This document shows positions 25,206 to 50,507 of a stretch of 64,000 nt of DNA, one piece after another. Where the stretch lies: positions 69,353 to 133,352 of the forward strand of contig JAKLDJ010000005.1 of assembly GCA_022703585.1 (NCBI GenBank). Reading direction: 5' to 3'. Numbering within the stretch: the first letter of the stretch is position 1; each line of letters begins with the position of its first letter. The notes beneath the pieces were generated by a model. That model worked only from the letters and a program-made list of their open reading frames with translations. It was not told the origin of the DNA and did no database searches. The position numbers and the translations under genes are program-made. Source of the stretch: Candidatus Omnitrophota bacterium (GTDB lineage: Bacteria; Omnitrophota; Gorgyraeia; Zapsychrales; JAKLDJ01).

Positions 25206-25250
25206 TTTCTTCCTTTTCTCCGCTCACACAATTACAGACCTATCCTGGGG

Positions 25251-30888: not shown

Positions 30889-31406
30889 TATCCGCCTGCC
30901 TCCCTGCCCGTAAGCACCTGATATGCATTTAAGGCTTTAGCAACAACAATCCCACGAGCTGTCAGGCAATAGGCCCCTTCCTTCATCTGGATATAACGGC
31001 AGCGCAACAAATCATCAATGCGGGGAATAATGATCTCGCTATCGGAAATACACGACGCGAGCTCCTCATAGCCAATGCCATCATGCTCGTGAATAATCCT
31101 TAAGATCTTTTGGGTTGGGCTTTCCACGCGGGTATTAAAATACAGCGCCAGGTAGATGGGAATAAGCAAAATATAAACAACCGCGGCACTCAATGCCAAC
31201 GGCAAATTCCATAGATTAACCGCTCTATCAGCCGAAGACCCATAAAAAAATAAATGTGCCAGCGCTCCATAGTAAAGCAAACCTACTAGCGAAAAAAACG
31301 CAAACGGAGCGATCTGCAACCTGTTCTTAGGAAAAACCCGGCACCATAGTATATGCATTAAAACCGCGATGCAAAATATGGACAGAGTTGCCAAAACGTA
31401 AAACAT
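30888..31406 (-). CDS. Small membrane protein with C-terminal winged-helix-like domain (paralogous architecture)
   Basis: 172 aa. N-terminal TM helices, then ILRIIHEHDGIGYEELAS...RYIQMKEGAYCLTARG, which is MarR-like. Confidence 0.5.
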   Translation of the reverse strand: MFYVLATLSIFCIAVLMHILWCRVFPKNRLQIAPFAFFSLVGLLYYGALAHLFFYGSSADRAVNLWNLPLALSAAVVYILLIPIYLALYFNTRVESPTQKILRIIHEHDGIGYEELASCISDSEIIIPRIDDLLRCRYIQMKEGAYCLTARGIVVAKALNAYQVLTGREAGG

Positions 31407-32122
31407 TATTTCCCCGCCTTATCTTTTTCTGGAAAGTAAATATCCTTGACCAAAATAAAAATGGCCTTCGAAACGCTTCTAAGGCTTCGTAGCGTCAGTG
31501 CCGTCGATTTTCCTTCTTTTCTGCCGGTATGGTGAAAGCAGACTTGTTTATAAGTGCAGCCAGATTTGATCATCCTGACCAGACATTCCGCGATCGCGGT
31601 CAGGCCGGACGATTTGATAGTGACGGATTGGATCGCTTGGCGCCGGCAGATAAACAGCCCGTTATAATATTTAAGCTTTAACCCAAAAAGACAATTCATT
31701 ACCAAAACAAATGTCTTTGAAATCATCCGCCGCAGCAGGCTGCGGTTTCGCGTGTCTTCCATGTAGGTAAAAATCAAATCGACATTATCGATTTGGCCGA
31801 TAATATCTTTTAGCGACTGCGCCGAGGCGTCATTGTCTCCAGGAAATCCGGTTACATAACTCTTGGTCGCCGCCCGTACCCCCGTCGAGAAAGCGCAACC
31901 AAATCCCTTGTTGGCCTCATGATGGATAACGTTTATCCGCGGATTGGCTTTCGCCTTGGCCTCGGCCAGCGCGCCGGTACGATCATGGCTGCCGTCATTG
32001 ACCACCACAATTTCATAGTCATCGGGCAGGCTGCCGACCGCTTGAACCACGTTATCAATGGCCGCTTCGATGTTCTTTTCTTCGTTAAACGCGGCAATGA
32101 CAATGGAAACATCCTTAGACAT
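31406..32122 (-). CDS. GT2 polyprenyl-phosphate glycosyltransferase
   Basis: I moved the start to the internal ATG at 32122 (an AAGGAG RBS lies 6 nt upstream), which avoids overlap with the preceding gene. Motifs VSIVIAAFNEE and VVNDGSHD. Confidence 0.75.
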   Translation of the reverse strand: MSKDVSIVIAAFNEEKNIEAAIDNVVQAVGSLPDDYEIVVVNDGSHDRTGALAEAKAKANPRINVIHHEANKGFGCAFSTGVRAATKSYVTGFPGDNDASAQSLKDIIGQIDNVDLIFTYMEDTRNRSLLRRMISKTFVLVMNCLFGLKLKYYNGLFICRRQAIQSVTIKSSGLTAIAECLVRMIKSGCTYKQVCFHHTGRKEGKSTALTLRSLRSVSKAIFILVKDIYFPEKDKAGK

Positions 32123-32132
32123 CAGAAACTCC

Positions 32133-33161
32133 TTAAGAAAACCGGATAATAATTCTTCCTGCCCGGCCCTGCTCGAGCGTTGCCAGGGCTTTATTGATTT
32201 GGGCAAACTTAAAACGGTGAGTGATCAATCTGCCAAGCGGAAATTTTCCGGCGCGGTACGCCCTTACAAAAAGAGGAAAATCCCTGTCAGGAACGGTCTC
32301 CCCGCCCCAGGTGCCGATAATTCGTTTGCCCTTGATTAGGTCAAAAGGGTTGATCGATATTTCCTGGTCATGCCTTAAATTGCCGGCAATGACCGCGGTC
32401 CCCTTGTCCCGAATCGCTTTAAAACAAGCCTCCATCCCCTCTTTTGTGCCCGAGGCCTCGAGGGCATAATCAACGCCGCCGGGGACAATTGCCTTTACGG
32501 ACGCATCAATATCTTTGCGGAAAATGAGGGCATGGGTTGCGCCCAACTTTTTAGCAAAAGAAATCTTTTCCTTTTGGGCGTCGATAGCGATTATCTTCGA
32601 ACACCCCTTTAACCGCGCGGCAAGGATAGCGCTGGCGCCGATACCTCCGGCACCAAAGATAGCAATCGTTGAGCCCTTGGATACGTTTAAAGTATTTAAA
32701 ACAATTCCCGCGCCTGTGGCCACCGCGCAGCCCAAAAGCGCCGCTTTATCCGGCGGAATCGTTTTGGGGATTTTGGTTAAACGGTTTTCGGCAATGACCG
32801 CGTGCTCGCAAAATGTGGCGATCGCTCCCGAATTAATGATTTGGTTGCCGGCTTTGTACTGAGTTCCGGCCGCATCCAAACCGCTTCCCTTAATCCACGA
32901 AAGAACGACATAATCATTCTTTTTTACTTTGCGCACCCCCTTGCCGGTTGCCACAACCACCCCTGCCCCTTCATGGCCCATCATATGCGGCAGATAACGG
33001 TCGGGGCCTTTGAAGCCTTTTATTTCATTGAGCTGGCTGCGGCACAGGCCGCTGGCAAGCACCTTGACCAAAACCTGGCCTTGGCTCAACGGCGGAATTT
33101 CAACCTCACGTATCACCAGAGGCGAATGAAGTTTATAAAGTATGGCTGCTTTTGTTTTCAT
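32133..33161 (-). CDS. Zn-dependent alcohol dehydrogenase (MDR family)
   Basis: GHEGAGVV and the Rossmann motif GAGGIGASAI. The start was moved to the internal Met (MKTKAAIL). Confidence 0.8.
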   Translation of the reverse strand: MKTKAAILYKLHSPLVIREVEIPPLSQGQVLVKVLASGLCRSQLNEIKGFKGPDRYLPHMMGHEGAGVVVATGKGVRKVKKNDYVVLSWIKGSGLDAAGTQYKAGNQIINSGAIATFCEHAVIAENRLTKIPKTIPPDKAALLGCAVATGAGIVLNTLNVSKGSTIAIFGAGGIGASAILAARLKGCSKIIAIDAQKEKISFAKKLGATHALIFRKDIDASVKAIVPGGVDYALEASGTKEGMEACFKAIRDKGTAVIAGNLRHDQEISINPFDLIKGKRIIGTWGGETVPDRDFPLFVRAYRAGKFPLGRLITHRFKFAQINKALATLEQGRAGRIIIRFS

Positions 33162-33166
33162 ACATT

Positions 33167-33826
33167 TTAATCCGCGATGAACCAAAAATAGTCCCCGGTG
33201 TAACCGACTTCACGAAACATCTTCACCCAATCATCCACATGCATCATGGTTTCGGCGGTTAAAACCCACTTTAATAAATTCTCACGCTCAGTTTCATTTC
33301 GCCAGGCATCAACCGTAATGTAACTACTGCCCCGGCATACGCGCTGAATCTCTCTGAGGGCGGTTTTAAGGCGCTCCAAGGGAAGATTGTGAATAGAATT
33401 AATCGAAATAACCAGGTCAAAGGATTTGTCCGCGTAGGGAAGTTTCTCAGCACTGGCGATTTTTAGAAACGGTTTAACCGAAGGCATGGCATGTTCTATC
33501 GCATAAGTGCTGACATCGATTCCGGCCACGGTCGCCTGCGGCATCAGCTCTTTGAAATCATGAAGCATAAATCCCTTGCCGCATCCGATATCCAGAATAG
33601 CCGCCGTCTCGGAGAGATTATAAAAATCCTTCAGCCTTTTAACCACCGGTTTCCAGCGACCGTCGTAACGGTACCCTCCGTAACCGCAGCGCCGGTCGCC
33701 GTCAAAGAAATCTTTTCCGAACTGTTTCGCTATTTTTACGATCTCCGGGGTCTTTTCCCGCGCCCGCGCGTCGTAATCCCGCACTGTCTTCGGGTGCTGG
33801 CTCAACAGATTGATTTCTTGTCCCAT
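33167..33826 (-). CDS. Class I SAM-dependent methyltransferase
   Basis: ILDIGCGKG motif I. This is a tandem paralogue of the next gene; they share the blocks FGK/REYFDGDR..GYGGY and DLVISIN. Confidence 0.75.
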   Translation of the reverse strand: MGQEINLLSQHPKTVRDYDARAREKTPEIVKIAKQFGKDFFDGDRRCGYGGYRYDGRWKPVVKRLKDFYNLSETAAILDIGCGKGFMLHDFKELMPQATVAGIDVSTYAIEHAMPSVKPFLKIASAEKLPYADKSFDLVISINSIHNLPLERLKTALREIQRVCRGSSYITVDAWRNETERENLLKWVLTAETMMHVDDWVKMFREVGYTGDYFWFIAD

Positions 33827-33841
33827 TTTCTAAGCGTCTTT

Positions 33842-34564
33842 CTATTCAGCGATAAACCACCAGTAATCACCGGTATAACCTGCTTCAGAGAATAATTTTT
33901 TCCATTCATCCGTATGCATATAGGTCAGGGCGGTCAGGTTCCATTTTAACAACAGCTCCCGTTCCTCCTCCGTACGCCAGGCGTGCACCGAAATAAAAGC
34001 ATTCTTTCGGGAGACGCGCTGGATTTCTTTTAAAGCCTGTCTGCATTCTTCTAAAGGCAAATGATCGATGGTATTGATCGAAATAACGAGGTCAAAGGAT
34101 TTGTCGGGATAAGGCAGCTGACGGGCATTGCCCACTTTAATAAAAGGCTTCATCTCGGCAAGCGCATGGTCATAGGCATATTGAGAAATATCAAGCCCTG
34201 ACACCGATAGTCCGGGTAAGAGCTTCTTAAAATCATTCAGCATAAAACCCTTGGCGCAACCCACGTCCAGAATCGACGAAGTGTTTGCAAGTTTGTAATG
34301 CTCCGATATTTTTTTAACCGTATCCGTCCAAAACCGGGGATGATAATAATATCCGCCGTATCCGTATAGCCGGTCACCGTCAAAATATTCTCGTCCAAAC
34401 TGCCGCGCTATGGACAGCATTTTATGCTCTAAGAGAATGTCGGTATTGTCCGGCTGTTTTACTTCGGATGAAAGCCAGTCGCCCCCTGCCAACCGCCGCT
34501 TGCCCCGTTCTTCAATAGGCCGTTTTGAACGGGGATAAAGATCCAGTAAATTTATTTCTGCCAT
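33842..34564 (-). CDS. Class I SAM-dependent methyltransferase (tandem paralogue)
   Basis: ILDVGCAKG motif I. The C-terminus ends ...GYTGDYWWFIAE, against ...GYTGDYFWFIAD in its neighbour. Confidence 0.75.
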   Translation of the reverse strand: MAEINLLDLYPRSKRPIEERGKRRLAGGDWLSSEVKQPDNTDILLEHKMLSIARQFGREYFDGDRLYGYGGYYYHPRFWTDTVKKISEHYKLANTSSILDVGCAKGFMLNDFKKLLPGLSVSGLDISQYAYDHALAEMKPFIKVGNARQLPYPDKSFDLVISINTIDHLPLEECRQALKEIQRVSRKNAFISVHAWRTEEERELLLKWNLTALTYMHTDEWKKLFSEAGYTGDYWWFIAE

Positions 34565-34578: not shown

Positions 34579-36393
34579 CTATCTCGATATCGGCTTCACA
34601 ATCATATTGCTCATAAATTCATTCTGACTTAATAACGGCTCCATGTCTTCCAGAGGCCGGGCCGCGTACGAGCCGTCCTCTCTTTGACGAAAACCCATGC
34701 GCGGAATCAGTTGCTGATCCTTTGAAATCATAATCTCGCACAAAACCGGCCCTTTGCCTTTAAGCACATGGCAAAGTTTTTTAACCAGCTCACCGTGATT
34801 GCTGATTCGTACCGCTTTGATACCATAGGCCCGAGAAACCTTTTTAAAATCGGGCAGGCTCACTCCCCCCTTTTTTCCAGAGCCCACATAACGGGATGAA
34901 AAAAATCCGTCCTGGGTATGTCGAATGGCTAAATAGCCGTCATTGTTAAAAACAAATATCTTTACCGGAAGCCGGTGATGGGCAATAGTCTGTAACTCAT
35001 GAATATTAAATTGCATACTCCCGTCGCCGACAATACAGATGGTGCGCTTACGGTTATTGGCAAAACAGGCGCCGATACTTTCCGGTAGTCCGGAACCCAT
35101 GGCACCGATCCCTGCCGAGGTAATAATACGCTGACCCTGCTTAATCCGCATGCCTTGAAACGGCATATACAACCCCGTCCCGCCTCCGTCGACACAAATA
35201 ACATCATGAGCTCCCAATTCATCGGATAAGACATCCATAAGGACATAGGGATTAACAAATTTCTTTTGCCTTCCCCACTCGCGAGGCACGGCATTGTATT
35301 TTTTATAGGCTGAGCACTTCCCGGCCCAAAACTTATCGGATTTTTGCAATTTGTTTTTATTTAATCCGGATAAAACTTTATTTAAAAATAATTTGGCATC
35401 CGAGCGAATGGAAAGATCGACGCGCACGGTCCGCTTGGCTATCTCGACCGGATCGATATCCACCATGATTATTTTCGCGTCCCGGGCAAAGGCAGCGTAA
35501 TTGGTGCCGGTCAACGGAATGCTCAAATGCGATCCGATACTTAATAATAAATCACAATTTTGAACCGCCAGATTAGCCCCGCGTTGCCCGGAAATTCCCA
35601 GCCGCCCCATATACAACGGTTCTTCGGTCGGCAAAATATCGCTGGCATTCCAGGTGGAGACAAAGGGAATTTTTGTCTTTTTAATAAACTCTTTAAATTC
35701 CTGCGCCGCTCCCGCTAAGCGCACCCCGTAGCCGGCTAAGACCAGTGGCCGTTTAGATGCCGCGATAAACCGGCGGCATTGTTTTAATTGTTCCTCAGAA
35801 ACAGTTTTTCCGGCGTCCTTTTGTTTAAGCGAAGCAGGATTAAAACTTTTAAGCTTATTCGGCTCAATCATCGCCCACTGGAAATTTAAAGGAATATCGA
35901 CCCAAACCGGCCCGGGCCTCCCGGACTGTGCAATATACAACGCTTTCTGTAGCTCATATTTAATCATCCCCGGATCCTGAATCATCACCGCGTATTTTGT
36001 TAAGGGCTTGACCAGCGAAACAATATCGATCTGCTGGCTGCCTAATTGCCTTATGGGTTTATTGTGCGTGGTGTGTTCTATCCTCGCCTGCCCCGAAATA
36101 AAAATACAGGGAACGGAATCAAGCCAGGCCGCGCACAAGCCCGTAATCGCATTCGTACCTCCGGGCCCCGTGGTCACAAACGCCGCCCCCAACTGGTTAT
36201 TGACCCGGGCATAAGCCTCGGCAGCCAAAGCCGCTGCCTGTTCGTGATGGGTAAAAACCGGCATCGTCTTAGAGTTGCGGTCCGCCGAGTCGAAAAGATG
36301 AACGACCGCGCCTCCGGTCACTCCGAAGATGTGCCCGACACCTTCTTTCGCCAGAAAATCCACCACGTAATCCGAAAGTTTTATTTTAGCCAT
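34579..36393 (-). CDS. Thiamine-diphosphate enzyme, acetolactate-synthase-large-subunit-like (YerE-like?)
   Basis: 604 aa. N-terminal Pyr domain (GVTGGAVVHLFD), central domain, and a C-terminal ThDP motif (GDGSMQFNIHEL...NNDGY). Confidence 0.85.
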   Translation of the reverse strand: MAKIKLSDYVVDFLAKEGVGHIFGVTGGAVVHLFDSADRNSKTMPVFTHHEQAAALAAEAYARVNNQLGAAFVTTGPGGTNAITGLCAAWLDSVPCIFISGQARIEHTTHNKPIRQLGSQQIDIVSLVKPLTKYAVMIQDPGMIKYELQKALYIAQSGRPGPVWVDIPLNFQWAMIEPNKLKSFNPASLKQKDAGKTVSEEQLKQCRRFIAASKRPLVLAGYGVRLAGAAQEFKEFIKKTKIPFVSTWNASDILPTEEPLYMGRLGISGQRGANLAVQNCDLLLSIGSHLSIPLTGTNYAAFARDAKIIMVDIDPVEIAKRTVRVDLSIRSDAKLFLNKVLSGLNKNKLQKSDKFWAGKCSAYKKYNAVPREWGRQKKFVNPYVLMDVLSDELGAHDVICVDGGGTGLYMPFQGMRIKQGQRIITSAGIGAMGSGLPESIGACFANNRKRTICIVGDGSMQFNIHELQTIAHHRLPVKIFVFNNDGYLAIRHTQDGFFSSRYVGSGKKGGVSLPDFKKVSRAYGIKAVRISNHGELVKKLCHVLKGKGPVLCEIMISKDQQLIPRMGFRQREDGSYAARPLEDMEPLLSQNEFMSNMIVKPISR

Positions 36394-36416
36394 ATCTTAA
36401 ATTTATTTTTGTGAAC

Positions 36417-37436
36417 TTATTGCCTCTTTTCCCTCTGCTTGTCAACAAGACTAATAGCAACCTCGACGATCATGTCTTCCTGCCCGCCTACAGCCTTACG
36501 CCGGCCTAATTCAAAAAAGACATCTTTGGCATCAACGCCGTATTGCAGAGAAACCCGTTCTACATGCCGGACAAAACCGGAAAAAACCCCGGCTAAGCCG
36601 CTGACAATGCTGATCGATTTTATTCCCTTGGCGCTTGTAAATAATTCTTTGGCTGCCATATCCGCCAGATCCAGGATTTTATAAAGATCGATTCCCGTCT
36701 TATAACCCATTTTATTTAATATCGCTACGACCGCTTCCATTTGGGTGTTGCCGGCACCGGCGCCAAATCCCAAAATGCAGCAATCTAAAATAGTTGCCCC
36801 GGCCTCAATCGCAGCAACGGAATTCGCAATTGCCAGCCCGAGATTATTGTGGGCATGAAACCCCACCGGTATTTTTAGCGCACCCGCTAAAGCAGCTATC
36901 CTCTCCTTGACATCGGCGGTTATATACGCCCCGGCCGAATCCATGATAATAACGCCGTCCACGTCATACGATTGCATTTTAAGGCACTCGTCGATTAATA
37001 TTTCTTTGGAAACCATGTGGGTCATCATCAAGTTGCCGTAGGCCAGCTTCCCTTTTTCTTTGACATAATTAATATGCCTTTGGGTGGTGTCGGCTTCCGT
37101 GCAATGCGATGACACACAAACCACATCAACACCCTGCTCAATGGCAGGGCCTAAATCTTTATTGATCGTCCCGAATCCGGGAATGATAAAAACTCCTAAT
37201 TTTGAACGGCTCAATTTTCCGCGGGCACACGCGATCATTTCTTGATCCGTCAGCAGGCTTTCGCCGACCTGCAGAGATGAAGCCCCCAGGCCGTTACCGT
37301 GGCCAACCATAACAATCGGGACTCCGGCGGTCTCAGCCGCCGCACAATACGATTCTATCTGGCGTCTATCCAACTGATGGCGGATGGCATGACTGCCGTC
37401 GCGCAACGAAGAATCAATAATGAAGACATCGGTCAT
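36417..37436 (-). CDS. 4-hydroxy-2-oxovalerate aldolase (DmpG/BphI/MhpE family)
   Basis: IIDSSLRDGSHAIRHQ, HGNGLG, SHCTEAD, HAHNNLGLAIANS and VGGQEDMIVEVA closely track DmpG. The start is set at the internal Met so that it overlaps the DmpF-like stop in an ATGA junction. Confidence 0.85.
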   Translation of the reverse strand: MTDVFIIDSSLRDGSHAIRHQLDRRQIESYCAAAETAGVPIVMVGHGNGLGASSLQVGESLLTDQEMIACARGKLSRSKLGVFIIPGFGTINKDLGPAIEQGVDVVCVSSHCTEADTTQRHINYVKEKGKLAYGNLMMTHMVSKEILIDECLKMQSYDVDGVIIMDSAGAYITADVKERIAALAGALKIPVGFHAHNNLGLAIANSVAAIEAGATILDCCILGFGAGAGNTQMEAVVAILNKMGYKTGIDLYKILDLADMAAKELFTSAKGIKSISIVSGLAGVFSGFVRHVERVSLQYGVDAKDVFFELGRRKAVGGQEDMIVEVAISLVDKQREKRQ

Positions 37437-38344
37437 AAGTGTTTTGCCCCTACCAACGCATCCTGCATCCGACAGGCATAGCGCTCTGCCGTTCTCACAG
37501 CAGCACAATTGATAATATCCAGGTTTCCCGCGTAGGCGGGAAGATAATCGCCCAAGCCCCGCACCTTAACCATGATCACGATGCGGTTATTTTCATAAAC
37601 CGGCGGGACAATGACCGAATACCCGGGCACATACGCTTGGATTGCTCTTTCCATCTCAAAAACGGCAGCCCTTAATTTCTCAATATCCGGCTTCGGCATT
37701 TTAGCGGACAAAGTCGTTTGCATATCAATACAAGGATCCGCGGGATTGAGAATCAAAATAACTTTGACATTATCGCATCGGGTAAAAGAACGCAGCCCCT
37801 CCTCGGTATTTTCGATGTATTCGTCGATATTGATCCGAGTCGCCATGCCCGCACTCCGCGAGGCGATAGAGGAAACAACCTCGATATACTCAATATCTTT
37901 ACACGTCCGGGAAAGGACAAAGGCGAGCGGAATCGATGCCTGACCGCCGCAGCTGACCATATTGACATTGCGATTATCGAGGGCATCATCAAGATTGATG
38001 GCCGGAACGATCATCTTGCCTATTTTGGACGGCGTCATGTCGATAACGGTTTTATCGGTTTCTTTTAATAACGCCCAATGCTGCAGGTGGTCCTTGGCCG
38101 AGGTCGCGTCAAACACAATCCGGCAGCAGTCAGGGTTATCAAGAATTTCGTTTATCCCCTTATCCGAGACCGCCACTCCCTTTTCTTTAGCTTTAAGCAT
38201 ACCCTTGGAATGGCAATTTCTCCCCACAAAACGCGTGCACTCCAAAACATCCGAGCGCAATATTTTTATCAGCAAATCCGTACCGATATTGCCGCTGCCT
38301 AAAATTGCGACTTTAATTTTTTCAGGGTACTGCGCCATAAACAA
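37433..38344 (-). CDS. Acetaldehyde dehydrogenase (acetylating), DmpF/MhpF family
   Basis: KVAILGSGNIGTDLLIKILRS and the catalytic-Cys region VSCGGQASIP. It is co-translationally coupled to the DmpG-like gene. Confidence 0.85.
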   Translation of the reverse strand: MFMAQYPEKIKVAILGSGNIGTDLLIKILRSDVLECTRFVGRNCHSKGMLKAKEKGVAVSDKGINEILDNPDCCRIVFDATSAKDHLQHWALLKETDKTVIDMTPSKIGKMIVPAINLDDALDNRNVNMVSCGGQASIPLAFVLSRTCKDIEYIEVVSSIASRSAGMATRINIDEYIENTEEGLRSFTRCDNVKVILILNPADPCIDMQTTLSAKMPKPDIEKLRAAVFEMERAIQAYVPGYSVIVPPVYENNRIVIMVKVRGLGDYLPAYAGNLDIINCAAVRTAERYACRMQDALVGAKHL

Positions 38345-38345
38345 T

Positions 38346-39044
38346 TTACCTTTTTTTCAAACCCACGCCGACCGCGAACAAATAATGCGCCATCGGATAA
38401 TAGCCGGTATGCACGACCTCGTCATTCATCGAGAATATAAAACCGTTTACAAAATATTTTTCTAATAGGGCCTTTAAATCCTTATGGTCCTTCTGATTAA
38501 TATGCTGGATACGGCTTCTTTCGGTAGCATATTTATCGGCGGTTTTATTGGGAGTGCCGATGATACAAATGCCGTCATCTTTGAGGCAACGGCAGCTATT
38601 TTCCATAAAAGGCTTTTCCAATTCCGGGTCCAGATGCTCGATGACATCAATGGAGAAGACACCGTCAAATTTGCGGTTAACCGGCGCCTGACAGATATCG
38701 ACTTTTTTAAATTCGATATTTTTAATCTTTTTTAAGCGCTGGCTATTGCCCACCATCAACCGGTCATCAACATCGATACCCAAACAATAGTGCGCATCCT
38801 GGGCAACCAAGGGAATGCCAAAGCCATCGCCGCAACCCACCTCCAGAATATCTTTTTTTCCTTGAAACATCTTGGCGCAAAATTTATACCGCGCCAAAAC
38901 AAAGCACATATGTTTGGGGTCATTAAGCAAGCTATAGGATGTCCAGGGGCCGAGCGAAATACACTCGGTATCAAACTGATAACTGCTGGCAATCTTAAAC
39001 GCCTCTTTTTGGGTCAATTTTTTCAACGGAATCTCCTTTTTCAT
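38346..39044 (-). CDS. Class I SAM-dependent methyltransferase
   Basis: ILEVGCGDGFG motif I. Confidence 0.75.
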   Translation of the reverse strand: MKKEIPLKKLTQKEAFKIASSYQFDTECISLGPWTSYSLLNDPKHMCFVLARYKFCAKMFQGKKDILEVGCGDGFGIPLVAQDAHYCLGIDVDDRLMVGNSQRLKKIKNIEFKKVDICQAPVNRKFDGVFSIDVIEHLDPELEKPFMENSCRCLKDDGICIIGTPNKTADKYATERSRIQHINQKDHKDLKALLEKYFVNGFIFSMNDEVVHTGYYPMAHYLFAVGVGLKKR

Positions 39045-39045
39045 T

Positions 39046-39864
39046 TCACATTAAAAAATCGTTTCTGCAGCGCCTGAGCTTATACATATTGGGGTCTTTC
39101 TTTAATGCCTGGGATAGCTTTTTGCTCGCAGGGCCCTGCCATTTGTCATTGACGACAGAAAAATTCCTTCCCCCGGCGATCTTCCTTCCTTGCCCGCACA
39201 GCCAGCGGATGCATCCGTAGATCTCATCCATGGTCGTGCCCTTGCCTTTTTTAAGAAACTCAATAACCTTTTGGCGCCTTTCGTCGTCCTTGCCGACATG
39301 TTTTAGGACAAAGGCGTGCGTCTTGGTCCTGGTCCACCCGGGCCCGACAATAAAGATATTGATATTCTTGTCCTCCGCATCCAGGAATTCGCACATCTTG
39401 ATCAACATGATCTTGGACACGGTATAGGCGGAAAATTTTAATACCGCATTATTAACCCCGCCACCGGCAAGAAAGACCACATCCACCACTTTGTTTTTCT
39501 TCCGGAGAGGATACATCTGGTGCAGCAGGCGCAATTGCTCGATAGAATTAACATGAACCGAATCACTCCACTCGTTAAAATCGCATTTAAAGAAATCTTT
39601 TAGCGGCAGCGGATTGCAGGGGCAAGAGATAAAGACATCCCAGGGCAAATGCAGCTTTTTATATCCGGCGATAAAACGGCTGATGCTTTTTTTATCCCCC
39701 ACATCACAGAAAAAGAGACGGCAATCTTTGATTCCCCTAAACTCCGGCAGCAATTTGGTAGAGCGATACGTCCCGACAATTTGATAGCCGGCCTTGGCGT
39801 AGCGTTTCGCCAGGGCAAGGCCGATATCGCTGGTGATGCTGATAATTACAACTGTCTTTTTCAT
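39046..39864 (-). CDS. Short-chain dehydrogenase/reductase (SDR) family protein
   Basis: The N-terminal Rossmann motif is modified (VVIISITSDIGLALAKR). The catalytic motif YTVSK (YxxxK) is present. Confidence 0.6.
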   Translation of the reverse strand: MKKTVVIISITSDIGLALAKRYAKAGYQIVGTYRSTKLLPEFRGIKDCRLFFCDVGDKKSISRFIAGYKKLHLPWDVFISCPCNPLPLKDFFKCDFNEWSDSVHVNSIEQLRLLHQMYPLRKKNKVVDVVFLAGGGVNNAVLKFSAYTVSKIMLIKMCEFLDAEDKNINIFIVGPGWTRTKTHAFVLKHVGKDDERRQKVIEFLKKGKGTTMDEIYGCIRWLCGQGRKIAGGRNFSVVNDKWQGPASKKLSQALKKDPNMYKLRRCRNDFLM

Positions 39865-39881
39865 AAATCCCCGTGCCTCGG

Positions 39882-40943
39882 TTATGATTTTAGAAAAGAA
39901 TATTTTTGTTCATCAATCTTTAACTTCCGAGCAAGGCTGCGAAAACGAACTACATCGCTTGCCTCCACCGCGATCCCTTTTGATCTCCTGACGCGATACG
40001 CTTCCTTTTCGGGATCTCCGGCCACCCGGACCCTGCCAAATCCTTTGGCCGGCGGTACCGAACGCAATTCGGTTAAAAGTTTTTTAAGCCGCGATTTAAA
40101 AGCGCCGACATTTTGAAATTTAGATATATCAATCGCCATAAGAAAATGGCCGAGCCTTCTTTTTTTACCGTCTACGGGAAACATATTCTCAATGTGCGGG
40201 CCCCAAGGCATACCCGTCAATACCCCGCACAATATCTCGACCATAAGGCCAAGCCCGTAGCCTTTGTAACCGCCGATAGGAAGAAGTGCGTTAGCGGCCG
40301 CGGCATTCAAGCATATCTTACCGTTTTTATCTGCCGCCCACCCGGCTTCCAGGCGCTTACCCTTGGCTTGATACTGCATCAATTTATTCCAAGAAATCAT
40401 GCTCGTTGCCATGTCCAGGCAAAAAGGCTCTTCCCCTCGGCAGGGAGCGGCGAAACAAATCGGATTTGTCCCCAAAAAACGTCTTTTACCCCCAAAGGGA
40501 ATAACCAGCCCTTCCACATTGGTAAAACTAAAACCCAGCATATTTTCTTTAGCCGCCATCAGGGCGTAAATCGACGCGGCGCCAAAATGCGTCGAATTAT
40601 AAACCGCGACACAGCCCACCCCGCAACGCCGGGCAACCTGTATCGCCTTTTCCATCGCCATGCCCGCCGCGGCAATCCCAAAGGTGTGATCCGCATTCAT
40701 CAGAACCGTTGTCAGCGAAGTCTTTTTAAATGTCAGCCGCGGTGATAGATTGATCCGTCCGATCAATGCCGCCTGAACATAATGCGGCAAAAGCCGGACG
40801 CCGTGCGAGTCTACTCCTCGAAGCGATGACTCGATAAGGCCGTCAATAACCGGCGCGGATAATTTTCTAGGGCAGCGAATACGGGAAAAGATATCCCTAA
40901 AAAATTCCCTGGCTAAGTTTTCTTTTAAGTATTTAAAAGCCAT
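39882..40943 (-). CDS. Ldh_2 family (malate/L-lactate/sulfolactate-type) 2-hydroxyacid dehydrogenase
   Basis: GVDSHGVRLLPHY, GTNPICFAAP and GGYKGYGLGLMVE are signature Ldh_2 blocks. Confidence 0.8.
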   Translation of the reverse strand: MAFKYLKENLAREFFRDIFSRIRCPRKLSAPVIDGLIESSLRGVDSHGVRLLPHYVQAALIGRINLSPRLTFKKTSLTTVLMNADHTFGIAAAGMAMEKAIQVARRCGVGCVAVYNSTHFGAASIYALMAAKENMLGFSFTNVEGLVIPFGGKRRFLGTNPICFAAPCRGEEPFCLDMATSMISWNKLMQYQAKGKRLEAGWAADKNGKICLNAAAANALLPIGGYKGYGLGLMVEILCGVLTGMPWGPHIENMFPVDGKKRRLGHFLMAIDISKFQNVGAFKSRLKKLLTELRSVPPAKGFGRVRVAGDPEKEAYRVRRSKGIAVEASDVVRFRSLARKLKIDEQKYSFLKS

Positions 40944-40970: not shown

Positions 40971-41480
40971 TTATAGCCGAAATAGCTTTAGCGTCTCTTT
41001 CATCCAAATCGCATTATCGCGAAAATGCTGCGCCGTCACCAGCGTCCCGTCGACCACCACCGGCTCGTCGATATAACTAGCACCGGCATTGATCAAATCA
41101 TCCTTGCAGCCTTTATAGCAGGTGGCCTTCTTTCCTTTCATAATCCCTGCCGAAACCAACACCCACGGCCCGTGACAAATACTCGCAATAGGCTTTTTAA
41201 GGTCATGCATGGCCTTGGTGAATTTTAAGATCTCAGGAACCTGTCGCACCCGATCCGGCGCTTCGTGCCCGCCGGGAATCACCAATAGATCAAACTGTTT
41301 CGCATCCAGAGCAGAAAAATTAATCGTCGGCTTTGCGGATATTCCGTGTTTACCACTCACCACTCCGTCCGTTGATGTACACACATCCACCGAAAATCCC
41401 GCCTCCTGCAAACGGTAATAGGGATAAAAGAATTCGGTATCTTCAAAGCCGGGCCCGGTAATAATAACCGCTCGATTCAT
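40971..41480 (-). CDS. DJ-1/PfpI family protein
   Basis: 169 aa. The nucleophile-elbow motif ASICHGPWVL is present. Confidence 0.8.
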   Translation of the reverse strand: MNRAVIITGPGFEDTEFFYPYYRLQEAGFSVDVCTSTDGVVSGKHGISAKPTINFSALDAKQFDLLVIPGGHEAPDRVRQVPEILKFTKAMHDLKKPIASICHGPWVLVSAGIMKGKKATCYKGCKDDLINAGASYIDEPVVVDGTLVTAQHFRDNAIWMKETLKLFRL

Positions 41481-41570: not shown

Positions 41571-43514
41571 TCAAACGGGTATACCTATCATTTTCGCAAC
41601 GTCATATATTTCAAAAAACTTTGACCAAAAAGGTGATTCTTTTACAGCTTTTTTATAATGGGCAGCTGCAAATTCATACCTCTCTTCATTGCCGAGCAAC
41701 CGGGCTGCCTTTGCGTTAACACCCCAAGCCACTGCATCCATTAAATAAAATCTAAGAATATGATCCGTGATATTTAAGATTTTCTTAGGTTCTCCAGAGG
41801 GTTGAAGATTAGGATTTCCGATAAGATTAACAAAGACATTAAAATATATCTGAAACTGCTGAATTTCCAACGGGCCAGGATTTTTATCAGGATCCATTTT
41901 TCGGAAATCATAAACTTCTTTGTACCGGTCGTCAAAAGTTAAGCCACGTTCCATTGCCCATTGGCCCGGAGTATATATATTTATTTTGGCGGTTTCATCG
42001 CCATGAACGACACGTTCATCGCCTAAAGATCGAAGCTGTTCAAACATTGCCGTACCCGGAATAGGAAATAAAACCGCACATTGGCAAAAGTCAACCCTTA
42101 AATCTTTGGCATAATCAAAAGTATTAAATAACTCCGCATAGGTCTCATTCGGAAACCCGATCATAAAATTGGCAAATAGCCAAATATGCGGATGGTTCTT
42201 TTTAAATATTTGACAGGCCTCTTCGACTTTGCTCAAAACAATAGGTTTGCACAAAGTTTTCAAGCGTTTCTCATTGGCCGTTTCTACCCCAAACCCGGCC
42301 ACGACACAGCCAGCCTGCGACATAGCCTTAGCCACTTTTTCATCGATCGAAATCGCCAACAAGGCATTTCCGGTGGAGAATGTCAAATCCAAATCAAGCG
42401 AGGCCCAACGGTCAAACAGCTCCAGCGCACGATCATGATAGGCGAGCAAATCATCATCGATAATCTCAACATGCCGAACTTTCTTCTCGTGATAGAGAAA
42501 GGATAACTCATCCATGACATCGTCGACGGACCTGCTCCTGACGCCGTTTCCCATGAGATTGTTCACCTGACAAAAGGCACAGCGCCCGCGACAACCGCGG
42601 TTGGTTAACAGGGTCGCCCACCTTCTGTCGGGAGAAGAGCCGGAGCGCGCCCACAGATTCGGCATGCCGACGTCGTTGTATCCATCCAGATCAATAAGGC
42701 TATATTCTTTTCGAATGTCGGGACATACGGTTCTTTCCCTGCGGTCGTCAAATGAAACAATATCTCCGTTGTGCTTAAATGACAGGTTGGATAGGACAGG
42801 AACAGCTGCTTCGGCCTCCGAAGAACCGCAGTTGACTTTCTCCCAGAAATTCAACAATTTAACAAATTGCGCCTGGCCTTCTTTTTTAATAACGATATCG
42901 CAATGGCCGAATTTCAATAGATTTTCAAAATTAGCAGAACTCTGCGGCCCTCCAGCAATCAAAAGTTTGCCCCGTCCGGATAGATGTCTTAGAAAATGAA
43001 GCGCCTCTGTCTGAGAAGGCTCAAAAAGAATTGAGAAACCATAGAGGTCACAATCATCAGGGATCAATTCCAAAAGCGCGTTAACATCATGCGGTTGATG
43101 CCGGGCTGTTCTTTTTAATGCCTCAAGAGATAGATCGATAATCTCTACGCTCCAATCCGGCAGCAAATGCCGTAAGGCAGACGAAAGCATCATCAGTCCG
43201 TACGGAGGATAGACGCTGTAACGCTTATTCTCAACCGCCCGAGGCTCTGTCTTTTGAGGGTCTAATGTCGGCGGAACTAGCAGGCATACCTTTCGATTAC
43301 GAATGGGAAAATTCGCCAGAAGATCCGAAAGTTTTTGATACTGAACGAGCTGCTCATTGCTTAAGATTCCGGAATCGAAGGAATTTTGAAAGAATACTTC
43401 CCTCAGCTCTTCCGTAGATAAATGATCAACTGACGGATCCGCTTTAAACATTTTTAAAGATCCAATTTCTGCCTTTAAGAACTCGTGCTTATGCTTAACA
43501 AGATCCTTGGTCAT
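41571..43514 (-). CDS. B12-binding-domain radical SAM protein
   Basis: 647 aa. An N-terminal cobalamin-binding-like domain precedes a CxxxCxxC radical-SAM motif (CRGRCAFC). Confidence 0.85.
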   Translation of the reverse strand: MTKDLVKHKHEFLKAEIGSLKMFKADPSVDHLSTEELREVFFQNSFDSGILSNEQLVQYQKLSDLLANFPIRNRKVCLLVPPTLDPQKTEPRAVENKRYSVYPPYGLMMLSSALRHLLPDWSVEIIDLSLEALKRTARHQPHDVNALLELIPDDCDLYGFSILFEPSQTEALHFLRHLSGRGKLLIAGGPQSSANFENLLKFGHCDIVIKKEGQAQFVKLLNFWEKVNCGSSEAEAAVPVLSNLSFKHNGDIVSFDDRRERTVCPDIRKEYSLIDLDGYNDVGMPNLWARSGSSPDRRWATLLTNRGCRGRCAFCQVNNLMGNGVRSRSVDDVMDELSFLYHEKKVRHVEIIDDDLLAYHDRALELFDRWASLDLDLTFSTGNALLAISIDEKVAKAMSQAGCVVAGFGVETANEKRLKTLCKPIVLSKVEEACQIFKKNHPHIWLFANFMIGFPNETYAELFNTFDYAKDLRVDFCQCAVLFPIPGTAMFEQLRSLGDERVVHGDETAKINIYTPGQWAMERGLTFDDRYKEVYDFRKMDPDKNPGPLEIQQFQIYFNVFVNLIGNPNLQPSGEPKKILNITDHILRFYLMDAVAWGVNAKAARLLGNEERYEFAAAHYKKAVKESPFWSKFFEIYDVAKMIGIPV

Positions 43515-46455: not shown

Positions 46456-46461
46456 ATTGAT

Positions 46462-50278: not shown

Positions 50279-50507
50279 TTAAAAATCACCCGGCAGCTCG
50301 ACTTCTAAAAAGGCTGCATAATTTTGGTACAAATTTTATCCGCCTTCGTCAGAAAACTGCGGCCGTAAGGCCGCAAATAAAACAATTGGCGGATAACCCT
50401 ACGAAACTCAAACACGAAAGTATTTGAGTGAAGTAGGGTTATTGGCTTACGCAGGAAAGTTATTGTACCACAGAGAGTTAAGCGAGGCAATAATTGAAAA
50501 AGCAAGG

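What the first reader, a model, noticed from the sequence alone, without database searches (positions are those of the whole stretch)
34579..40943. DmpG/DmpF aldolase-dehydrogenase pair, an AHAS-like ThDP enzyme and an Ldh_2 reductase inside a glycan cluster
DmpG and DmpF normally finish aromatic meta-cleavage pathways: 4-hydroxy-2-oxovalerate is cleaved to pyruvate plus acetaldehyde, then to acetyl-CoA. Here they sit with no meta-cleavage genes. They are flanked by methyltransferases, an SDR, an Ldh_2 2-oxo/2-hydroxy acid reductase and an AHAS-like ThDP enzyme. Run in the biosynthetic direction, this set could build and reduce a C5 hydroxy-oxo acid. That product might serve as a sugar ketal or ester substituent, or feed acetaldehyde or activated acetaldehyde to the ThDP enzyme. 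Either reading is non-canonical.
Basis: inference. Interest (0 to 1): 0.6.

Follow-up and report, generated by a model that had tools for sequence, protein, structure and literature searches.

The report
Side-chain builder for a branched sugar
The "aromatic-degradation" enzyme pair DmpG/DmpF is used here, as in the published erwiniose pathway of Pectobacterium, to make a small keto acid that a neighbouring thiamine enzyme grafts onto a sugar as a carbon side chain. The idea is therefore already known, but this Omnitrophota cluster is an undescribed, more elaborate version of it.

Summary
Six co-directional, tightly packed genes at 34579-40943 encode a ThDP enzyme, DmpG, DmpF, a methyltransferase, an SDR and an Ldh_2 protein, with no meta-cleavage genes in the 64-kb window.

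The pair works biosynthetically, and a published precedent exists: ErwJ/ErwI/ErwE in erwiniose biosynthesis (Steitz 2022, PMC9306805). There, acetyl-CoA gives acetaldehyde, pyruvate is added to form 4-hydroxy-2-oxopentanoate, and a YerE-like ThDP enzyme decarboxylates this and C-acylates a keto sugar.

- The window's ThDP enzyme is YerE-like: JanthE 458 bits, AHAS 248.
- 60 of the 80 closest genomic DmpG loci carry such a ThDP gene, 57 of them within 3.5 kb; none shows ring-cleavage genes.
- All 120 closest homologues have Phe at BphI Tyr290, the change that unlocks 4R stereochemistry.
- Ldh_2 is not tied to DmpFG. It travels with DJ-1 and a cupin in related cassettes that lack DmpFG.

The window belongs to a distinct cassette type: E1αβ second brancher, Cj1427-like dehydrogenase, methyltransferases, and heptose genes in relatives. 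Verdict: new variant of a known kind, moderate interest.

The parts
34579..36393 (-). YerE-like ThDP-dependent carboligase (604 aa), the predicted sugar C-branching enzyme
   Evidence: It has three ThDP domains and falls below every AHAS cutoff. Best solved relatives are JanthE 8RPH (458 bits) and PpYerE 5AHK (292), against AHAS at no more than 248 (8RPH = JanthE per PMC12188165; 5AHK = PpYerE is my recollection). The HHEQ catalytic Glu and the GDG...NN ThDP motif are present. In an NJ tree it sits inside the DmpFG-linked JanthE clade and outside E. coli IlvI and Gcl.
36417..37436 (-). DmpG/BphI-type class II pyruvate aldolase (339 aa) with Phe at both stereo-determining positions (BphI L87 and Y290)
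   Evidence: TIGR03217 scores 364 bits, above the 286 cutoff. It is 40% identical to E. coli MhpE. Catalytic Arg, Asp, His and the two metal-binding His are conserved, as is the channel-lining GG. F87/I89/F290 replace the L/L/Y of DmpG, HsaF and MhpE.
37433..38338 (-). DmpF/BphJ-type acylating acetaldehyde dehydrogenase (301 aa), translationally coupled to the aldolase by an ATGA overlap
   Evidence: TIGR03215 scores 369 bits, above the 282 cutoff. The GSGNIGTD NAD motif and the CGGQ nucleophile Cys are conserved. It is 43% identical to MhpF. The overlap was read directly from the sequence.
38346..39044 (-). Class I SAM methyltransferase (232 aa), probably an O-methyltransferase of the branch or sugar
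   Evidence: Pfam Methyltransf_11/25. Orthologues sit beside the SDR in L001, L010, L093 and L094.
39046..39864 (-). Classical SDR (272 aa), candidate reductase of the branch C1' ketone (the role ErwF/YerF play in the precedent)
   Evidence: Pfam adh_short. It is conserved next to the module in L001, L091 (75% identity), L093, L094 and L010.
39882..40943 (-). Ldh_2-family 2-hydroxy/2-oxo acid dehydrogenase (353 aa), part of a separate accessory set and not coupled to DmpFG
   Evidence: Pfam Ldh_2 357 bits; below all NCBIfam equivalog cutoffs. Nearest structures are type-2 malate/lactate, ureidoglycolate and sulfolactate dehydrogenases. Contexts of close homologues.
40971..41480 (-). DJ-1/PfpI protein (169 aa), constant partner of the Ldh_2 gene
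   Evidence: Pfam 173 bits. Copies 64-71% identical lie one or two genes from the Ldh_2 homologue in L093, L094 and L097.
41571..43514 (-). B12-binding radical SAM enzyme (647 aa), candidate C-methyltransferase
   Evidence: Pfam Radical_SAM plus B12-binding. Such genes also occur in L001 and L091.
43511..44338 (-). Cupin-like protein (275 aa), function unknown
   Evidence: Only weak Cupin_2 and PMI-C matches. It is 46% identical to the N-terminal part of an 875-aa cupin-ThDP fusion in L093 and 36% to a cupin in L097. No PDB sequence hit and a failed structure model.
44371..45363 (-). NDP-sugar 4,6-dehydratase-like SDR (330 aa)
   Evidence: TIGR01181 scores 202 bits, below the cutoff. Best PDB matches are dTDP-glucose 4,6-dehydratases. 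It is 46-70% identical in cassettes of this type.
45379..47427 (-). E1 beta (45379-46455) and E1 alpha (46462-47427) of a 2-oxo acid dehydrogenase with no E2/E3: a candidate second ThDP enzyme for sugar branching (alphaKADH2 type)
   Evidence: Pfam E1_dh and Transket_pyr/Transketolase_C; PDH-E1-like in NCBIfam. The pair is conserved in L001, L010, L012, L013, L029, L079 and L093. The class is described in PMC12247030.
47424..48434 (-). Extended SDR (336 aa), candidate NDP-heptose C4-dehydrogenase that would create the keto acceptor
   Evidence: Best PDB hit is 6VO6/6VO8 at 161 bits. I recall that entry as C. jejuni Cj1427 but could not verify it here. Cj1427 function is described in PMC10680097. 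The gene is 57-70% identical in L010, L092 (= L012) and L093, and cassettes of this type also hit it.
31406..34564 (-). Downstream conserved genes: methyltransferases (33842-34564 and 33167-33826), Zn-dependent alcohol dehydrogenase (32133-33185) and GT2 (31406-32206)
   Evidence: Pfam. The methyltransferase and Zn-ADH genes are conserved after the ThDP gene in L001, L010, L012, L013, L029, L052, L079, L093 and L094. The GT2 weakly resembles polyprenyl-phosphate glycosyltransferases such as DPMS, GtrB, ArnC and PpgS.
28125..30344 (-). YfhO-like polytopic membrane protein (739 aa, 13 predicted TM segments), candidate GT-C transferase that installs the sugar outside the cytoplasm
   Evidence: Weak Pfam YfhO match; hydropathy analysis. 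YfhO or PMT_2 genes also follow the cassette in L092 and L001.

Best explanation
The DmpF-DmpG-ThDP trio is a donor-supply plus C-branching module for a nucleotide sugar, of the kind described for erwiniose (ErwJ/ErwI/ErwE).

Proposed steps, all inferred from the precedent:
1. DmpF reduces acetyl-CoA to acetaldehyde, or possibly propionyl-CoA to propanal.
2. The aldehyde passes to DmpG, which adds pyruvate to give 4-hydroxy-2-oxopentanoate (HOPA). The Phe-for-Tyr290 change suggests the 4R or non-4S enantiomer.
3. The YerE-like ThDP enzyme decarboxylates this acid and attaches the resulting 3-hydroxybutanoyl unit by a C-C bond to a keto group of an NDP-sugar, creating a tertiary alcohol.
4. The SDR and/or Zn-ADH reduce the branch ketone.
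5. The SAM and B12-radical-SAM methyltransferases decorate the product.
6. A GT2 plus YfhO-type GT-C route installs it on a surface glycan.

Shown here: gene identities, active-site residues, conserved adjacency across phyla, and absence of catabolic partners. Not shown: the acceptor sugar. It is probably not the CDP-3,6-dideoxy-4-keto-glucose of the erwiniose and yersiniose pathways. Relatives of this cassette carry heptose-nucleotide genes and a Cj1427-like dehydrogenase, so a 4-keto heptose is my best guess. Ldh_2 is not part of this module.
For: Precedent: PMC9306805. ErwE sits beside a BphI-like aldolase and a BphJ-like dehydrogenase, accepts 4-hydroxy-2-oxopentanoate and rejects pyruvate.

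Identity of the window enzymes:
- DmpG and DmpF pass equivalog cutoffs.
- The ThDP enzyme fails AHAS cutoffs. It is closest to JanthE (458 bits) and PpYerE (292), against AHAS at 248.
- It nests in the DmpFG-linked clade.

Context:
- Among the 80 closest genomic DmpG loci, from many bacterial phyla, CPR and archaea, 60 have a YerE-like gene (57 within 3.5 kb of DmpG) and 78 have DmpF adjacent.
- Pfam-annotated examples (L001, L002, L006, L008, L091, L092) are all NDP-sugar clusters.
- No MhpB/MhpC hits were found. The 17 full-length loci that lack a YerE-like gene carry aminotransferase, hydratase, methyltransferase and NRPS neighbours, not ring-cleavage genes.

Stereochemistry:
- BphI is strictly 4S. 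Y290F relaxes this, and L87W/Y290F inverts it to 4R (PMC3962088).
- ErwE uses (4R)-HOPA.
- The window has F87/F290, and all 120 closest homologues have F290.
- In the representative search, the F290 group contains the closest relatives of the window. Canonical L87/Y290 proteins score lower.

Coupling: ATGA overlap of DmpF and DmpG, and a 23-nt gap to the ThDP gene.
Against: - No Erw protein sequence could be obtained, so orthology to ErwE/I/J is inferred through JanthE, PpYerE and gene context only.
- YerE-like enzymes 58-62% identical to the window's occur in syntenic cassettes with no DmpFG (L093, L094). The donor of this subclade is therefore not necessarily HOPA.
- The window lacks the cytidylyltransferase and DegT-type 3-dehydrase that make the acceptor in erwiniose-type (Erw-type) loci, and it lacks an ErwF-type extended SDR directly after the aldolase.
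- F290 also occurs in actinomycete DmpG genes that sit beside hydratases in natural-product clusters. It marks non-catabolic use rather than sugar branching specifically.
- JanthE is promiscuous for donors.
- No enzyme of this cassette type has been assayed.
Confidence: 0.72

Rival explanations
1. DmpFG makes the C5 acid, Ldh_2 reduces it to 2,4-dihydroxypentanoate, and this is attached to a sugar as an ester, amide or ketal. The ThDP enzyme does something unrelated.
For: Ldh_2 enzymes reduce 2-oxo acids. The gene lies about 1.5 kb upstream of dmpF, separated from it by the SDR and methyltransferase genes, in the same operon-like run.
Against: Ldh_2 and DJ-1 are absent from all 80 DmpG loci and from L001, L091 and L092. 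Ldh_2 homologues at 56-62% identity sit with DJ-1, and in two of three cases a cupin, in cassettes without DmpFG. No acyl-activating enzyme or acyltransferase lies next to the module. The ThDP gene is the constant neighbour of DmpG.
Confidence: 0.08
2. The aldolase pair and the YerE-like enzyme are not sequentially coupled here. The ThDP enzyme uses another 2-oxo acid: pyruvate, or one delivered by the cupin/DJ-1/Ldh_2 set. DmpFG feeds a different step, for example a second side chain or the E1 alpha/beta enzyme.
For: L093 and L094 keep the same ThDP subclade, SDR and methyltransferase without DmpFG. The window holds two ThDP systems. JanthE accepts several donors.
Against: DmpF-DmpG-ThDP are directly consecutive in the window, L001, L010 and L091. 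The window's ThDP enzyme is most similar (69-72%) to those of L001 and L091, which carry DmpFG. The only tested precedent couples the two activities.
Confidence: 0.15
3. Canonical catabolic role. DmpG cleaves 4-hydroxy-2-oxovalerate from aromatic or steroid degradation, and its position in a glycan cluster is coincidental.
For: Both proteins pass the equivalog models built on catabolic enzymes. The catalytic and channel residues are intact.
Against: There is no hydratase, dioxygenase or hydrolase in the window. The closest 80 loci show no meta-cleavage context. Tyr290 is replaced by Phe. The gene is embedded in a tight operon.
Confidence: 0.02
4. The ThDP enzyme is an ordinary acetohydroxyacid synthase for branched-chain amino acid synthesis.
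For: The best NCBIfam matches are AHAS large subunits.
Against: Every AHAS model scores below its cutoff (404 against 538 for TIGR00118). No regulatory small subunit lies adjacent. YerE-like structures score far higher than AHAS. The tree placement agrees.
Confidence: 0.02

Closest known systems
Erwiniose pathway of Pectobacterium atrosepticum SCRI1043: ErwE (ThDP), ErwF (reductase), ErwI (BphI-like aldolase), ErwJ (BphJ-like dehydrogenase); Steitz et al. 2022, PMC9306805
   Same: It has the same three-enzyme logic and adjacency: an acylating aldehyde dehydrogenase, a class II pyruvate aldolase and a YerE-like carboligase in a surface-glycan locus. Divergence from the catabolic enzymes is similar: window 40-43% to MhpE/MhpF, ErwI/J 43/41% to BphI/J.
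   Different: - Gene order differs: here the ThDP gene lies downstream of the aldolase, whereas in the Erw-type loci seen here it lies upstream.
- The ThDP enzyme belongs to a separate subclade, 36-40% identical to the Erw-type, JanthE-like enzymes.
- The CDP-3,6-dideoxyhexose genes are absent.
- A classical SDR and a Zn-ADH replace the extended-SDR reductase.
- E1 alpha/beta, three or four methyltransferases, a B12-rSAM, and cupin/DJ-1/Ldh_2 are added.
- Direct sequence comparison with the Erw proteins was not possible.
YerE (yersiniose A) and JanthE, YerE-like ThDP carboligases (PDB 5AHK, 8RPH)
   Same: Same enzyme family and same chemistry: decarboxylation of a 2-oxo acid and addition to a ketone to give a tertiary alcohol. 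JanthE-type genes lie 2.3-3.3 kb from DmpG in Janthinobacterium, Duganella and Massilia genomes.
   Different: YerE is pyruvate-specific and has no aldolase partner. JanthE has a CDG motif where the window enzyme has the canonical GDG.
DmpFG / BphIJ / MhpEF / HsaFG, the catabolic aldolase-dehydrogenase complexes of meta-cleavage and steroid pathways
   Same: Same fold, catalytic residues, communication domain and paired dehydrogenase with a nucleophile Cys. Both window proteins pass the equivalog HMMs.
   Different: The direction of use differs (condensation). The window pair has no hydratase or dioxygenase partners. Leu87 and Tyr290 are replaced by Phe and Phe, the positions that fix 4S stereochemistry in BphI.
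alphaKADH2-type E1 alpha/beta sugar-branching enzymes (for example KbDH of kibdelomycin; reviewed in PMC12247030)
   Same: An E1 alpha/beta pair without E2/E3 sits among NDP-sugar modifying genes (45379-47427).
   Different: The review describes such enzymes mainly in actinomycete antibiotic clusters. Here the pair co-occurs with a YerE-like enzyme in a surface-glycan cassette of uncultured phyla. I found no description of that combination in the held literature.
Caryophyllose / gastriose pathways (MMAR_2331 aldolase + MMAR_2332 ThDP enzyme)
   Same: The scheme is the same: an aldolase makes a hydroxylated 2-oxo acid that a ThDP enzyme grafts onto a keto sugar. Branch O-methylation is known in that system.
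   Different: Those pathways use HpcH/HpaI-type aldolases and longer donors. The window uses the DmpG type with Ile at BphI position 89, which argues for a short aldehyde. L092 and L097 carry HpcH/HpaI aldolases.

Membership tests
DmpG/BphI 4-hydroxy-2-oxovalerate aldolase (TIGR03217) | HMGL-like TIM barrel plus DmpG communication domain, scoring above the equivalog cutoff | tested here: met
   364 bits against a cutoff of 286; both Pfam domains present.
DmpG/BphI 4-hydroxy-2-oxovalerate aldolase (TIGR03217) | Catalytic Arg17, Asp18, His21, His200 and His202 (DmpG numbering), and small residues lining the channel (GG) | tested here: met
   The five catalytic residues are conserved in the window and invariant in the 120 closest homologues. 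The GG pair is present in the window; the homologue consensus reads AG.
DmpG/BphI 4-hydroxy-2-oxovalerate aldolase (TIGR03217) | Leu87 and Tyr290 (BphI numbering), which enforce 4S specificity | tested here: not met
   The window has Phe at both. All 120 homologues have F290. DmpG, HsaF and MhpE have L/Y. The meaning of these positions comes from PMC3962088.
DmpG/BphI 4-hydroxy-2-oxovalerate aldolase (TIGR03217) | Operon context with a 2-oxopent-4-enoate hydratase and ring-cleavage genes | tested here: not met
   None in the window. Among 80 related loci, 0 hit MhpB or MhpC. Hydratases occur only in 10 actinomycete natural-product loci.
DmpF/BphJ acylating acetaldehyde dehydrogenase (TIGR03215) | Score above cutoff, NAD-binding GxGxxG motif, nucleophile Cys, and adjacency to the aldolase | tested here: met
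   369 bits against 282. GSGNIGTD and CGGQ are present. The gene overlaps dmpG by ATGA.
YerE-like ThDP carboligases (sugar C-branching decarboxylase subclass) | Three-domain ThDP enzyme with catalytic Glu and GDG...NN motif, closer to YerE-like enzymes than to AHAS | tested here: met
   JanthE 458 bits, PpYerE 292, best AHAS 248. Tree placement agrees.
YerE-like ThDP carboligases (sugar C-branching decarboxylase subclass) | Located among NDP-sugar biosynthesis and glycosyltransferase genes | tested here: met
   for the window; for relatives.
YerE-like ThDP carboligases (sugar C-branching decarboxylase subclass) | Carboligation of a 2-oxo acid donor onto a keto-sugar acceptor | not testable with these tools
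   This needs an enzyme assay.
Erw-type acyl-branched sugar system (ErwE/F/I/J) | ThDP enzyme, BphI-like aldolase and BphJ-like dehydrogenase encoded side by side | tested here: met
   The window carries the three genes at 34579-38338. The same adjacency holds in 57 of 80 related loci, within 3.5 kb.
Erw-type acyl-branched sugar system (ErwE/F/I/J) | Genes for CDP-3,6-dideoxy-4-keto-glucose (cytidylyltransferase, 4,6-dehydratase, DegT-type 3-dehydrase) and an extended-SDR reductase after the aldolase | tested here: not met
   These are present in L002, L006 and L008. They are absent from the window, which instead has a Cj1427-like SDR, a divergent dehydratase-like SDR, a classical SDR and a Zn-ADH.
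Erw-type acyl-branched sugar system (ErwE/F/I/J) | Sequence orthology to WP_011093010 to WP_011093013 | not tested
Biosynthetic acetohydroxyacid synthase | Score above the TIGR00118 or PRK cutoffs, and an adjacent regulatory small subunit | tested here: not met
   404 bits against 538, and all other AHAS models are also below cutoff. The neighbours are dmpG and a methyltransferase.
Ldh_2 (type-2 malate/L-lactate dehydrogenase family) | Full-length Pfam PF02615 match | tested here: met
   357 bits, residues 11-329.
Ldh_2 (type-2 malate/L-lactate dehydrogenase family) | Membership of a characterised equivalog (AllD, sulfolactate dehydrogenase, YiaK and others) | tested here: not met
   All scores are below cutoff: 252 against 356, 227 against 500, and so on.

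The most novel reading that the evidence does not exclude
The window represents an undescribed cassette family spread across Omnitrophota, Planctomycetota, Verrucomicrobiota, Elusimicrobiota, CPR and Methylophilaceae. It would build a multiply C-branched, O- and C-methylated heptose using two different ThDP carboligases on one nucleotide sugar: an E1 alpha/beta pair for a C2 branch and a YerE-like enzyme for a C4 branch.

The cassette would draw on interchangeable donor-supply modules. One is a naturally 4R-selective DmpFG pair (F87/F290). The other is a previously unrecognised cupin/DJ-1/Ldh_2(/HAD) route that would turn a 2-oxoaldehyde into a 2-oxo acid donor.
Probability: 0.2. Interest if true: 0.7.

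Novelty: new variant of a known kind. Interest (0 to 1): 0.45.

Why it matters
It shows that the erwiniose-type trick is not a curiosity of a few Proteobacteria and mycobacteria. Running a "catabolic" aldolase-dehydrogenase pair backwards to feed a thiamine enzyme that grafts carbon side chains onto sugars turns out to be widespread. It appears in many bacterial phyla, candidate-phyla-radiation (CPR) bacteria and archaea.

- It gives a simple sequence marker, Phe at BphI position 290, that separates biosynthetic DmpG enzymes from degradative ones. This can correct the routine mis-annotation of these genes as aromatic-degradation genes in metagenomes.
- It points to natural 4R-selective pyruvate aldolases and new YerE-like carboligases of interest for biocatalysis of chiral tertiary alcohols.
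- It predicts an unusual, heavily modified branched sugar on the surface of uncultured Omnitrophota.

Tried and rejected
- Exact-sequence look-ups of DmpG failed twice because of wrong start codons. This was resolved through the homologue search and direct reading of the sequence.
- Erw protein sequences could not be obtained. The paper's supplement is not held, and the single genome scan returned no Pectobacterium locus. Direct comparison with ErwE/I/J, including ErwI position 290, was therefore not done.
- tblastn with E. coli MhpB/MhpC cannot detect glyoxalase-fold dioxygenases. I therefore added a Pfam scan of 110 neighbour ORFs from the 17 full-length loci that lack a YerE-like gene. No ring-cleavage family appeared among the 25 commonest.
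- The cupin-like protein (43511-44338) gave no PDB sequence hit. Its single-sequence AlphaFold model was unusable (pLDDT 30), so no fold search was run.
- I could not verify that PDB 6VO6 is Cj1427, because the papers are not held. It is flagged as recollection.
- PDB 7Z3S, the best DmpF match, could not be traced to an organism or pathway.
- The promoter/terminator scan was only slightly above shuffled expectation and was not used. The one exception is a hairpin at 50376-50357 between moaC and the cluster.
- Catabolic, AHAS and ketal/ester readings were considered and rejected, as set out under the rival explanations.

Full report
**Observation**

The 64-kb window is almost entirely minus-strand coding. 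The interval 34579-40943 holds six genes.
- A three-domain ThDP enzyme of 604 aa.
- A DmpG-type aldolase with its communication domain.
- A DmpF-type acylating acetaldehyde dehydrogenase.
- A class I methyltransferase.
- A classical SDR.
- An Ldh_2 protein.

DmpG and DmpF exceed NCBI's equivalog cutoffs (364/286 and 369/282 bits). The ThDP enzyme is AHAS-like but below every AHAS cutoff, for example 404 against 538.

The true starts are 37436 for DmpG and 38338 for DmpF. dmpF and dmpG overlap by ATGA, which agrees with the public gene calls.

The source is a Candidatus Omnitrophota MAG, GCA_035390605.1.

The wider locus, about 18.2-50.3 kb, is a glycan cluster. It contains:
- a radical SAM enzyme and a GT9-like protein;
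- two epimerase/dehydratase-family SDRs;
- an E1 alpha/beta pair;
- a cupin-like protein;
- a B12-radical SAM enzyme;
- DJ-1;
- three further methyltransferases;
- a Zn-ADH;
- two GT2 proteins;
- two YfhO-like and two other polytopic membrane proteins;
- a FemAB-like protein.

No Mhp-type hydroxylase, dioxygenase, hydrolase or hydratase is detectable in the window.

**What it is**

The arrangement has a published explanation. Steitz et al. 2022 (PMC9306805) worked on the O-antigen locus of Pectobacterium atrosepticum. They found a YerE-like ThDP enzyme (ErwE) beside a BphI-like aldolase (ErwI), a BphJ-like acetaldehyde dehydrogenase (ErwJ) and a reductase (ErwF).

ErwE accepts 4-hydroxy-2-oxopentanoate and related gamma-hydroxy 2-oxo acids, couples them to a ketone that mimics the sugar, and rejects pyruvate. 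Their proposed sequence is:
1. ErwJ converts acetyl-CoA to acetaldehyde.
2. ErwI adds pyruvate to give (R)-4-hydroxy-2-oxopentanoate.
3. ErwE decarboxylates this and adds it to CDP-3,6-dideoxy-4-keto-glucose.
4. ErwF reduces the product to erwiniose, a sugar with a C4 side chain.

A 2025 review (PMC12247030) treats YerE-like enzymes as a defined subclass. It mentions more than 200 candidates identified by cluster similarity.

**Tests of membership**

*The ThDP enzyme.* Its best solved relatives are JanthE (8RPH, 458 bits; identity of the entry confirmed in PMC12188165) and 5AHK (292 bits). 5AHK is deposited as 'acetolactate synthase II' and I recall it as PpYerE. Genuine AHAS scores 248 or less. 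The enzyme has the catalytic Glu and a canonical GDG...NN motif.

In a neighbour-joining tree, every ThDP enzyme found next to a DmpG homologue forms one clade together with JanthE. PpYerE is sister to that clade, and E. coli IlvI and Gcl lie outside.

*The aldolase and dehydrogenase.* DmpG keeps the catalytic Arg, Asp and His, both metal-binding His, and the small channel residues. DmpF keeps the NAD motif and the nucleophile Cys. They are 40% and 43% identical to E. coli MhpE and MhpF, much as ErwI/J are to BphI/J.

DmpG has homologues at 63-78% identity in Planctomycetota, Margulisiibacteriota, Elusimicrobiota, Chloroflexota, cyanobacteria, Altiarchaeia and Methanoperedens.

A scan of one genome per species returned the 80 closest loci. 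Searching them with the window's proteins and with E. coli MhpABCDFE gave these counts:
- 78 of 80 have DmpF adjacent.
- 60 of 80 have a YerE-like ThDP gene; 57 lie within 3.5 kb, with a median distance of 2.4 kb.
- None hits MhpB or MhpC.
- One Paenibacillus locus (L049) hits MhpA.

Pfam-annotated examples are all nucleotide-sugar clusters.

Of the 20 loci without a YerE-like gene, three are short contigs. The other 17 are mostly actinomycete. Their 110 neighbouring ORFs are dominated by class I/II aminotransferases, FAA-hydrolase-type hydratases, methyltransferases, LnmK-like proteins and NRPS domains. No ring-cleavage family is among the 25 most frequent.

**A stereochemical signature**

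BphI is strictly 4S-specific. Y290F or Y290S abolishes that control, and L87N/Y290F or L87W/Y290F cleave only the 4R enantiomer (PMC3962088). ErwE uses the 4R acid.

The window's DmpG has Phe at both positions. All 120 closest homologues have Phe at 290, with F, H, Y or occasionally L at 87. DmpG, HsaF and MhpE have Leu and Tyr.

A search of 1.84 billion cluster representatives shows three groups:
- The F290 group, 40-58% identical, contains the closest relatives of the window.
- Canonical L87/Y290 proteins follow at 37-43%.
- A large third group of about 650-700-aa proteins has Tyr in place of His21 and His at position 290.

Position 89, which limits aldehyde length in BphI, is Ile here. That argues for acetaldehyde or propanal.

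One caveat applies. The actinomycete loci with hydratase neighbours also carry F290. The signature therefore marks the non-catabolic clade rather than sugar branching as such.

**Two cassette types**

Most loci are Erw-like. Their usual content is a nucleotidyltransferase, a 4,6-dehydratase, a DegT-type 440-aa enzyme, then ThDP-DmpF-DmpG and an extended SDR. Their ThDP enzymes are 36-40% identical to the window's. JanthE nests among Duganella, Janthinobacterium and Massilia loci of this type.

The window belongs to a second type: L001, L010, L012 (= L092), L013, L016, L029, L052, L079 and L091. Its features are:
- ThDP enzymes 43-72% identical to the window's, placed after dmpG.
- An E1 alpha/beta pair in six of these nine loci; L091 has a split transketolase instead, and the contigs of L016 and L052 end too close to dmpG to tell.
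- Homologues of the two epimerase-family SDRs.
- Paralogous methyltransferases.
- A Zn-ADH.
- Often a classical SDR and a B12-radical SAM enzyme.

Five of these loci carry HldE and/or GmhA heptose-nucleotide genes directly upstream; the window does not. The SDR at 47424-48434 matches PDB 6VO6 best. I recall that entry as Cj1427, the GDP-heptose C4-dehydrogenase that uses alpha-ketoglutarate (function in PMC10680097), but I could not verify the PDB assignment.

The acceptor is therefore probably a keto-heptose rather than a 3,6-dideoxyhexose. This is inference.

E1 alpha/beta pairs without E2/E3 are the second known class of sugar C-branching ThDP enzymes, described mainly from antibiotic clusters. 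I found no description of their co-occurrence with a YerE-like enzyme in a surface-glycan cassette.

Downstream, a GT2 with weak similarity to polyprenyl-phosphate glycosyltransferases and YfhO-like GT-C proteins suggest delivery by a lipid-linked, extracytoplasmic route. This too is inference.

**The Ldh_2 gene**

Ldh_2 is not linked to DmpFG. Neither Ldh_2 nor DJ-1 occurs in any of the 80 DmpG loci, nor in L001, L091 or L092. Its closest homologues (56-63% identity) were examined in three contexts.
- L093 is syntenic with the window gene for gene. Percent identities to the window proteins are: Epi 70, E1a 53, E1b 61, dehydratase-like 70, cupin 46 (fused to a second ThDP enzyme), DJ-1 69, Ldh_2 62, SDR 57, MT 48, ThDP 58, MT 83, Zn-ADH 43. 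It has no dmpFG.
- L094 has DJ-1, Ldh_2, SDR, MT and ThDP, again without dmpFG.
- L097 has an HpcH/HpaI aldolase, a split ThDP enzyme, DJ-1, a cupin, Ldh_2 and a HAD protein.

Cupin, DJ-1 and Ldh_2 (with or without HAD) thus form a second recurrent accessory set. The window is a hybrid that carries both sets. Its function is unexplained. I offer two ideas:
- A route from a 2-oxoaldehyde, through a glyoxalase-III-type reaction and dehydrogenation, to a 2-oxo acid donor.
- Recycling of L-2-hydroxyglutarate for a Cj1427-like dehydrogenase.

Both are speculative.

**Verdict**

However, the mechanism is the published erwiniose-type donor supply and C-branching, not a ketal or ester substituent or an acetaldehyde feed, and Ldh_2 is not part of it.

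The core idea is known. Four things are new:
- The breadth of distribution.
- The F290 marker.
- A distinct, more complex cassette type: two ThDP branchers, a probable heptose acceptor and heavy methylation.
- The unexplained cupin/DJ-1/Ldh_2 set.

I rate it a new variant of a known kind, interest 0.45. Confidence in the proposed role of the trio is 0.72. Confidence is lower, about 0.5, for the 4R stereochemistry and for the nature of the acceptor.

Noticed in passing
window 40971-41480, 43511-44338 and 39882-40943; L093:4787-9059, L094:329-1884, L097:8692-11737: DJ-1/PfpI, a cupin-like protein and Ldh_2 (sometimes with a HAD hydrolase) recur together in nucleotide-sugar clusters that contain YerE-like ThDP enzymes, independently of DmpFG. 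In L093 the cupin is fused to a second ThDP enzyme (875 aa). Function unknown.
   Followed up: partly
L062, L065, L071, L073, L077, L078, L083, L086, L087, L089 (about 8-13 kb in each): Actinomycete DmpG homologues also carry Phe at BphI position 290. They sit with an MhpD-like hydratase, a divergent DmpF (about 40% identity), a class I/II aminotransferase, a methyltransferase, LnmK-like proteins and NRPS genes. They look like cassettes for an unusual amino-acid building block rather than catabolism.
   Followed up: partly
P0272-P0390: A large group of about 650-700-aa proteins has a DmpG-like N-terminal half, 30-36% identical to the window's DmpG. It has Tyr instead of the catalytic His21 and the signature F87/I89/H290. 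It appears to be a separate, uncharacterised subfamily.
   Followed up: no
L091:10054-11359 and L092:11023-11823: In L091 a split transketolase (N and pyrimidine-binding parts) takes the place of the E1 alpha/beta pair. In L092 an HpcH/HpaI aldolase follows dmpG directly, so that locus has two pyruvate aldolases of different folds.
   Followed up: no
window 30346-31406: Two adjacent small ORFs (172 and 180 aa) each have three N-terminal transmembrane segments and a soluble C-terminal domain, with no family match. They lie between the TM-less GT2 and the YfhO-like protein and may be membrane partners of the GT2.
   Followed up: partly
window 18196-27392: Four large polytopic membrane proteins lie in one glycan locus: YfhO-like proteins of 907 and 739 aa, plus unassigned proteins of 713 and 595 aa with 11 and 8 predicted TM segments. 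A FemAB/GNAT-like protein sits at 21664-22698.
   Followed up: no
window 56414-63878: G+C drops to 0.41-0.42 at the 3' end of the window. This stretch holds a DNA methylase (60136-62613), a 422-aa protein with only faint helicase-C and TnsA-like matches, an HTH-nucleotidyltransferase (57473-58009) and a zinc-finger protein. It may be a restriction-modification/defence or mobile island.
   Followed up: no
window 50357-50376 (minus strand): The strongest terminator-like hairpin of the region lies between moaC and the first gene of the glycan cluster, consistent with a separate transcription unit starting there.
   Followed up: no
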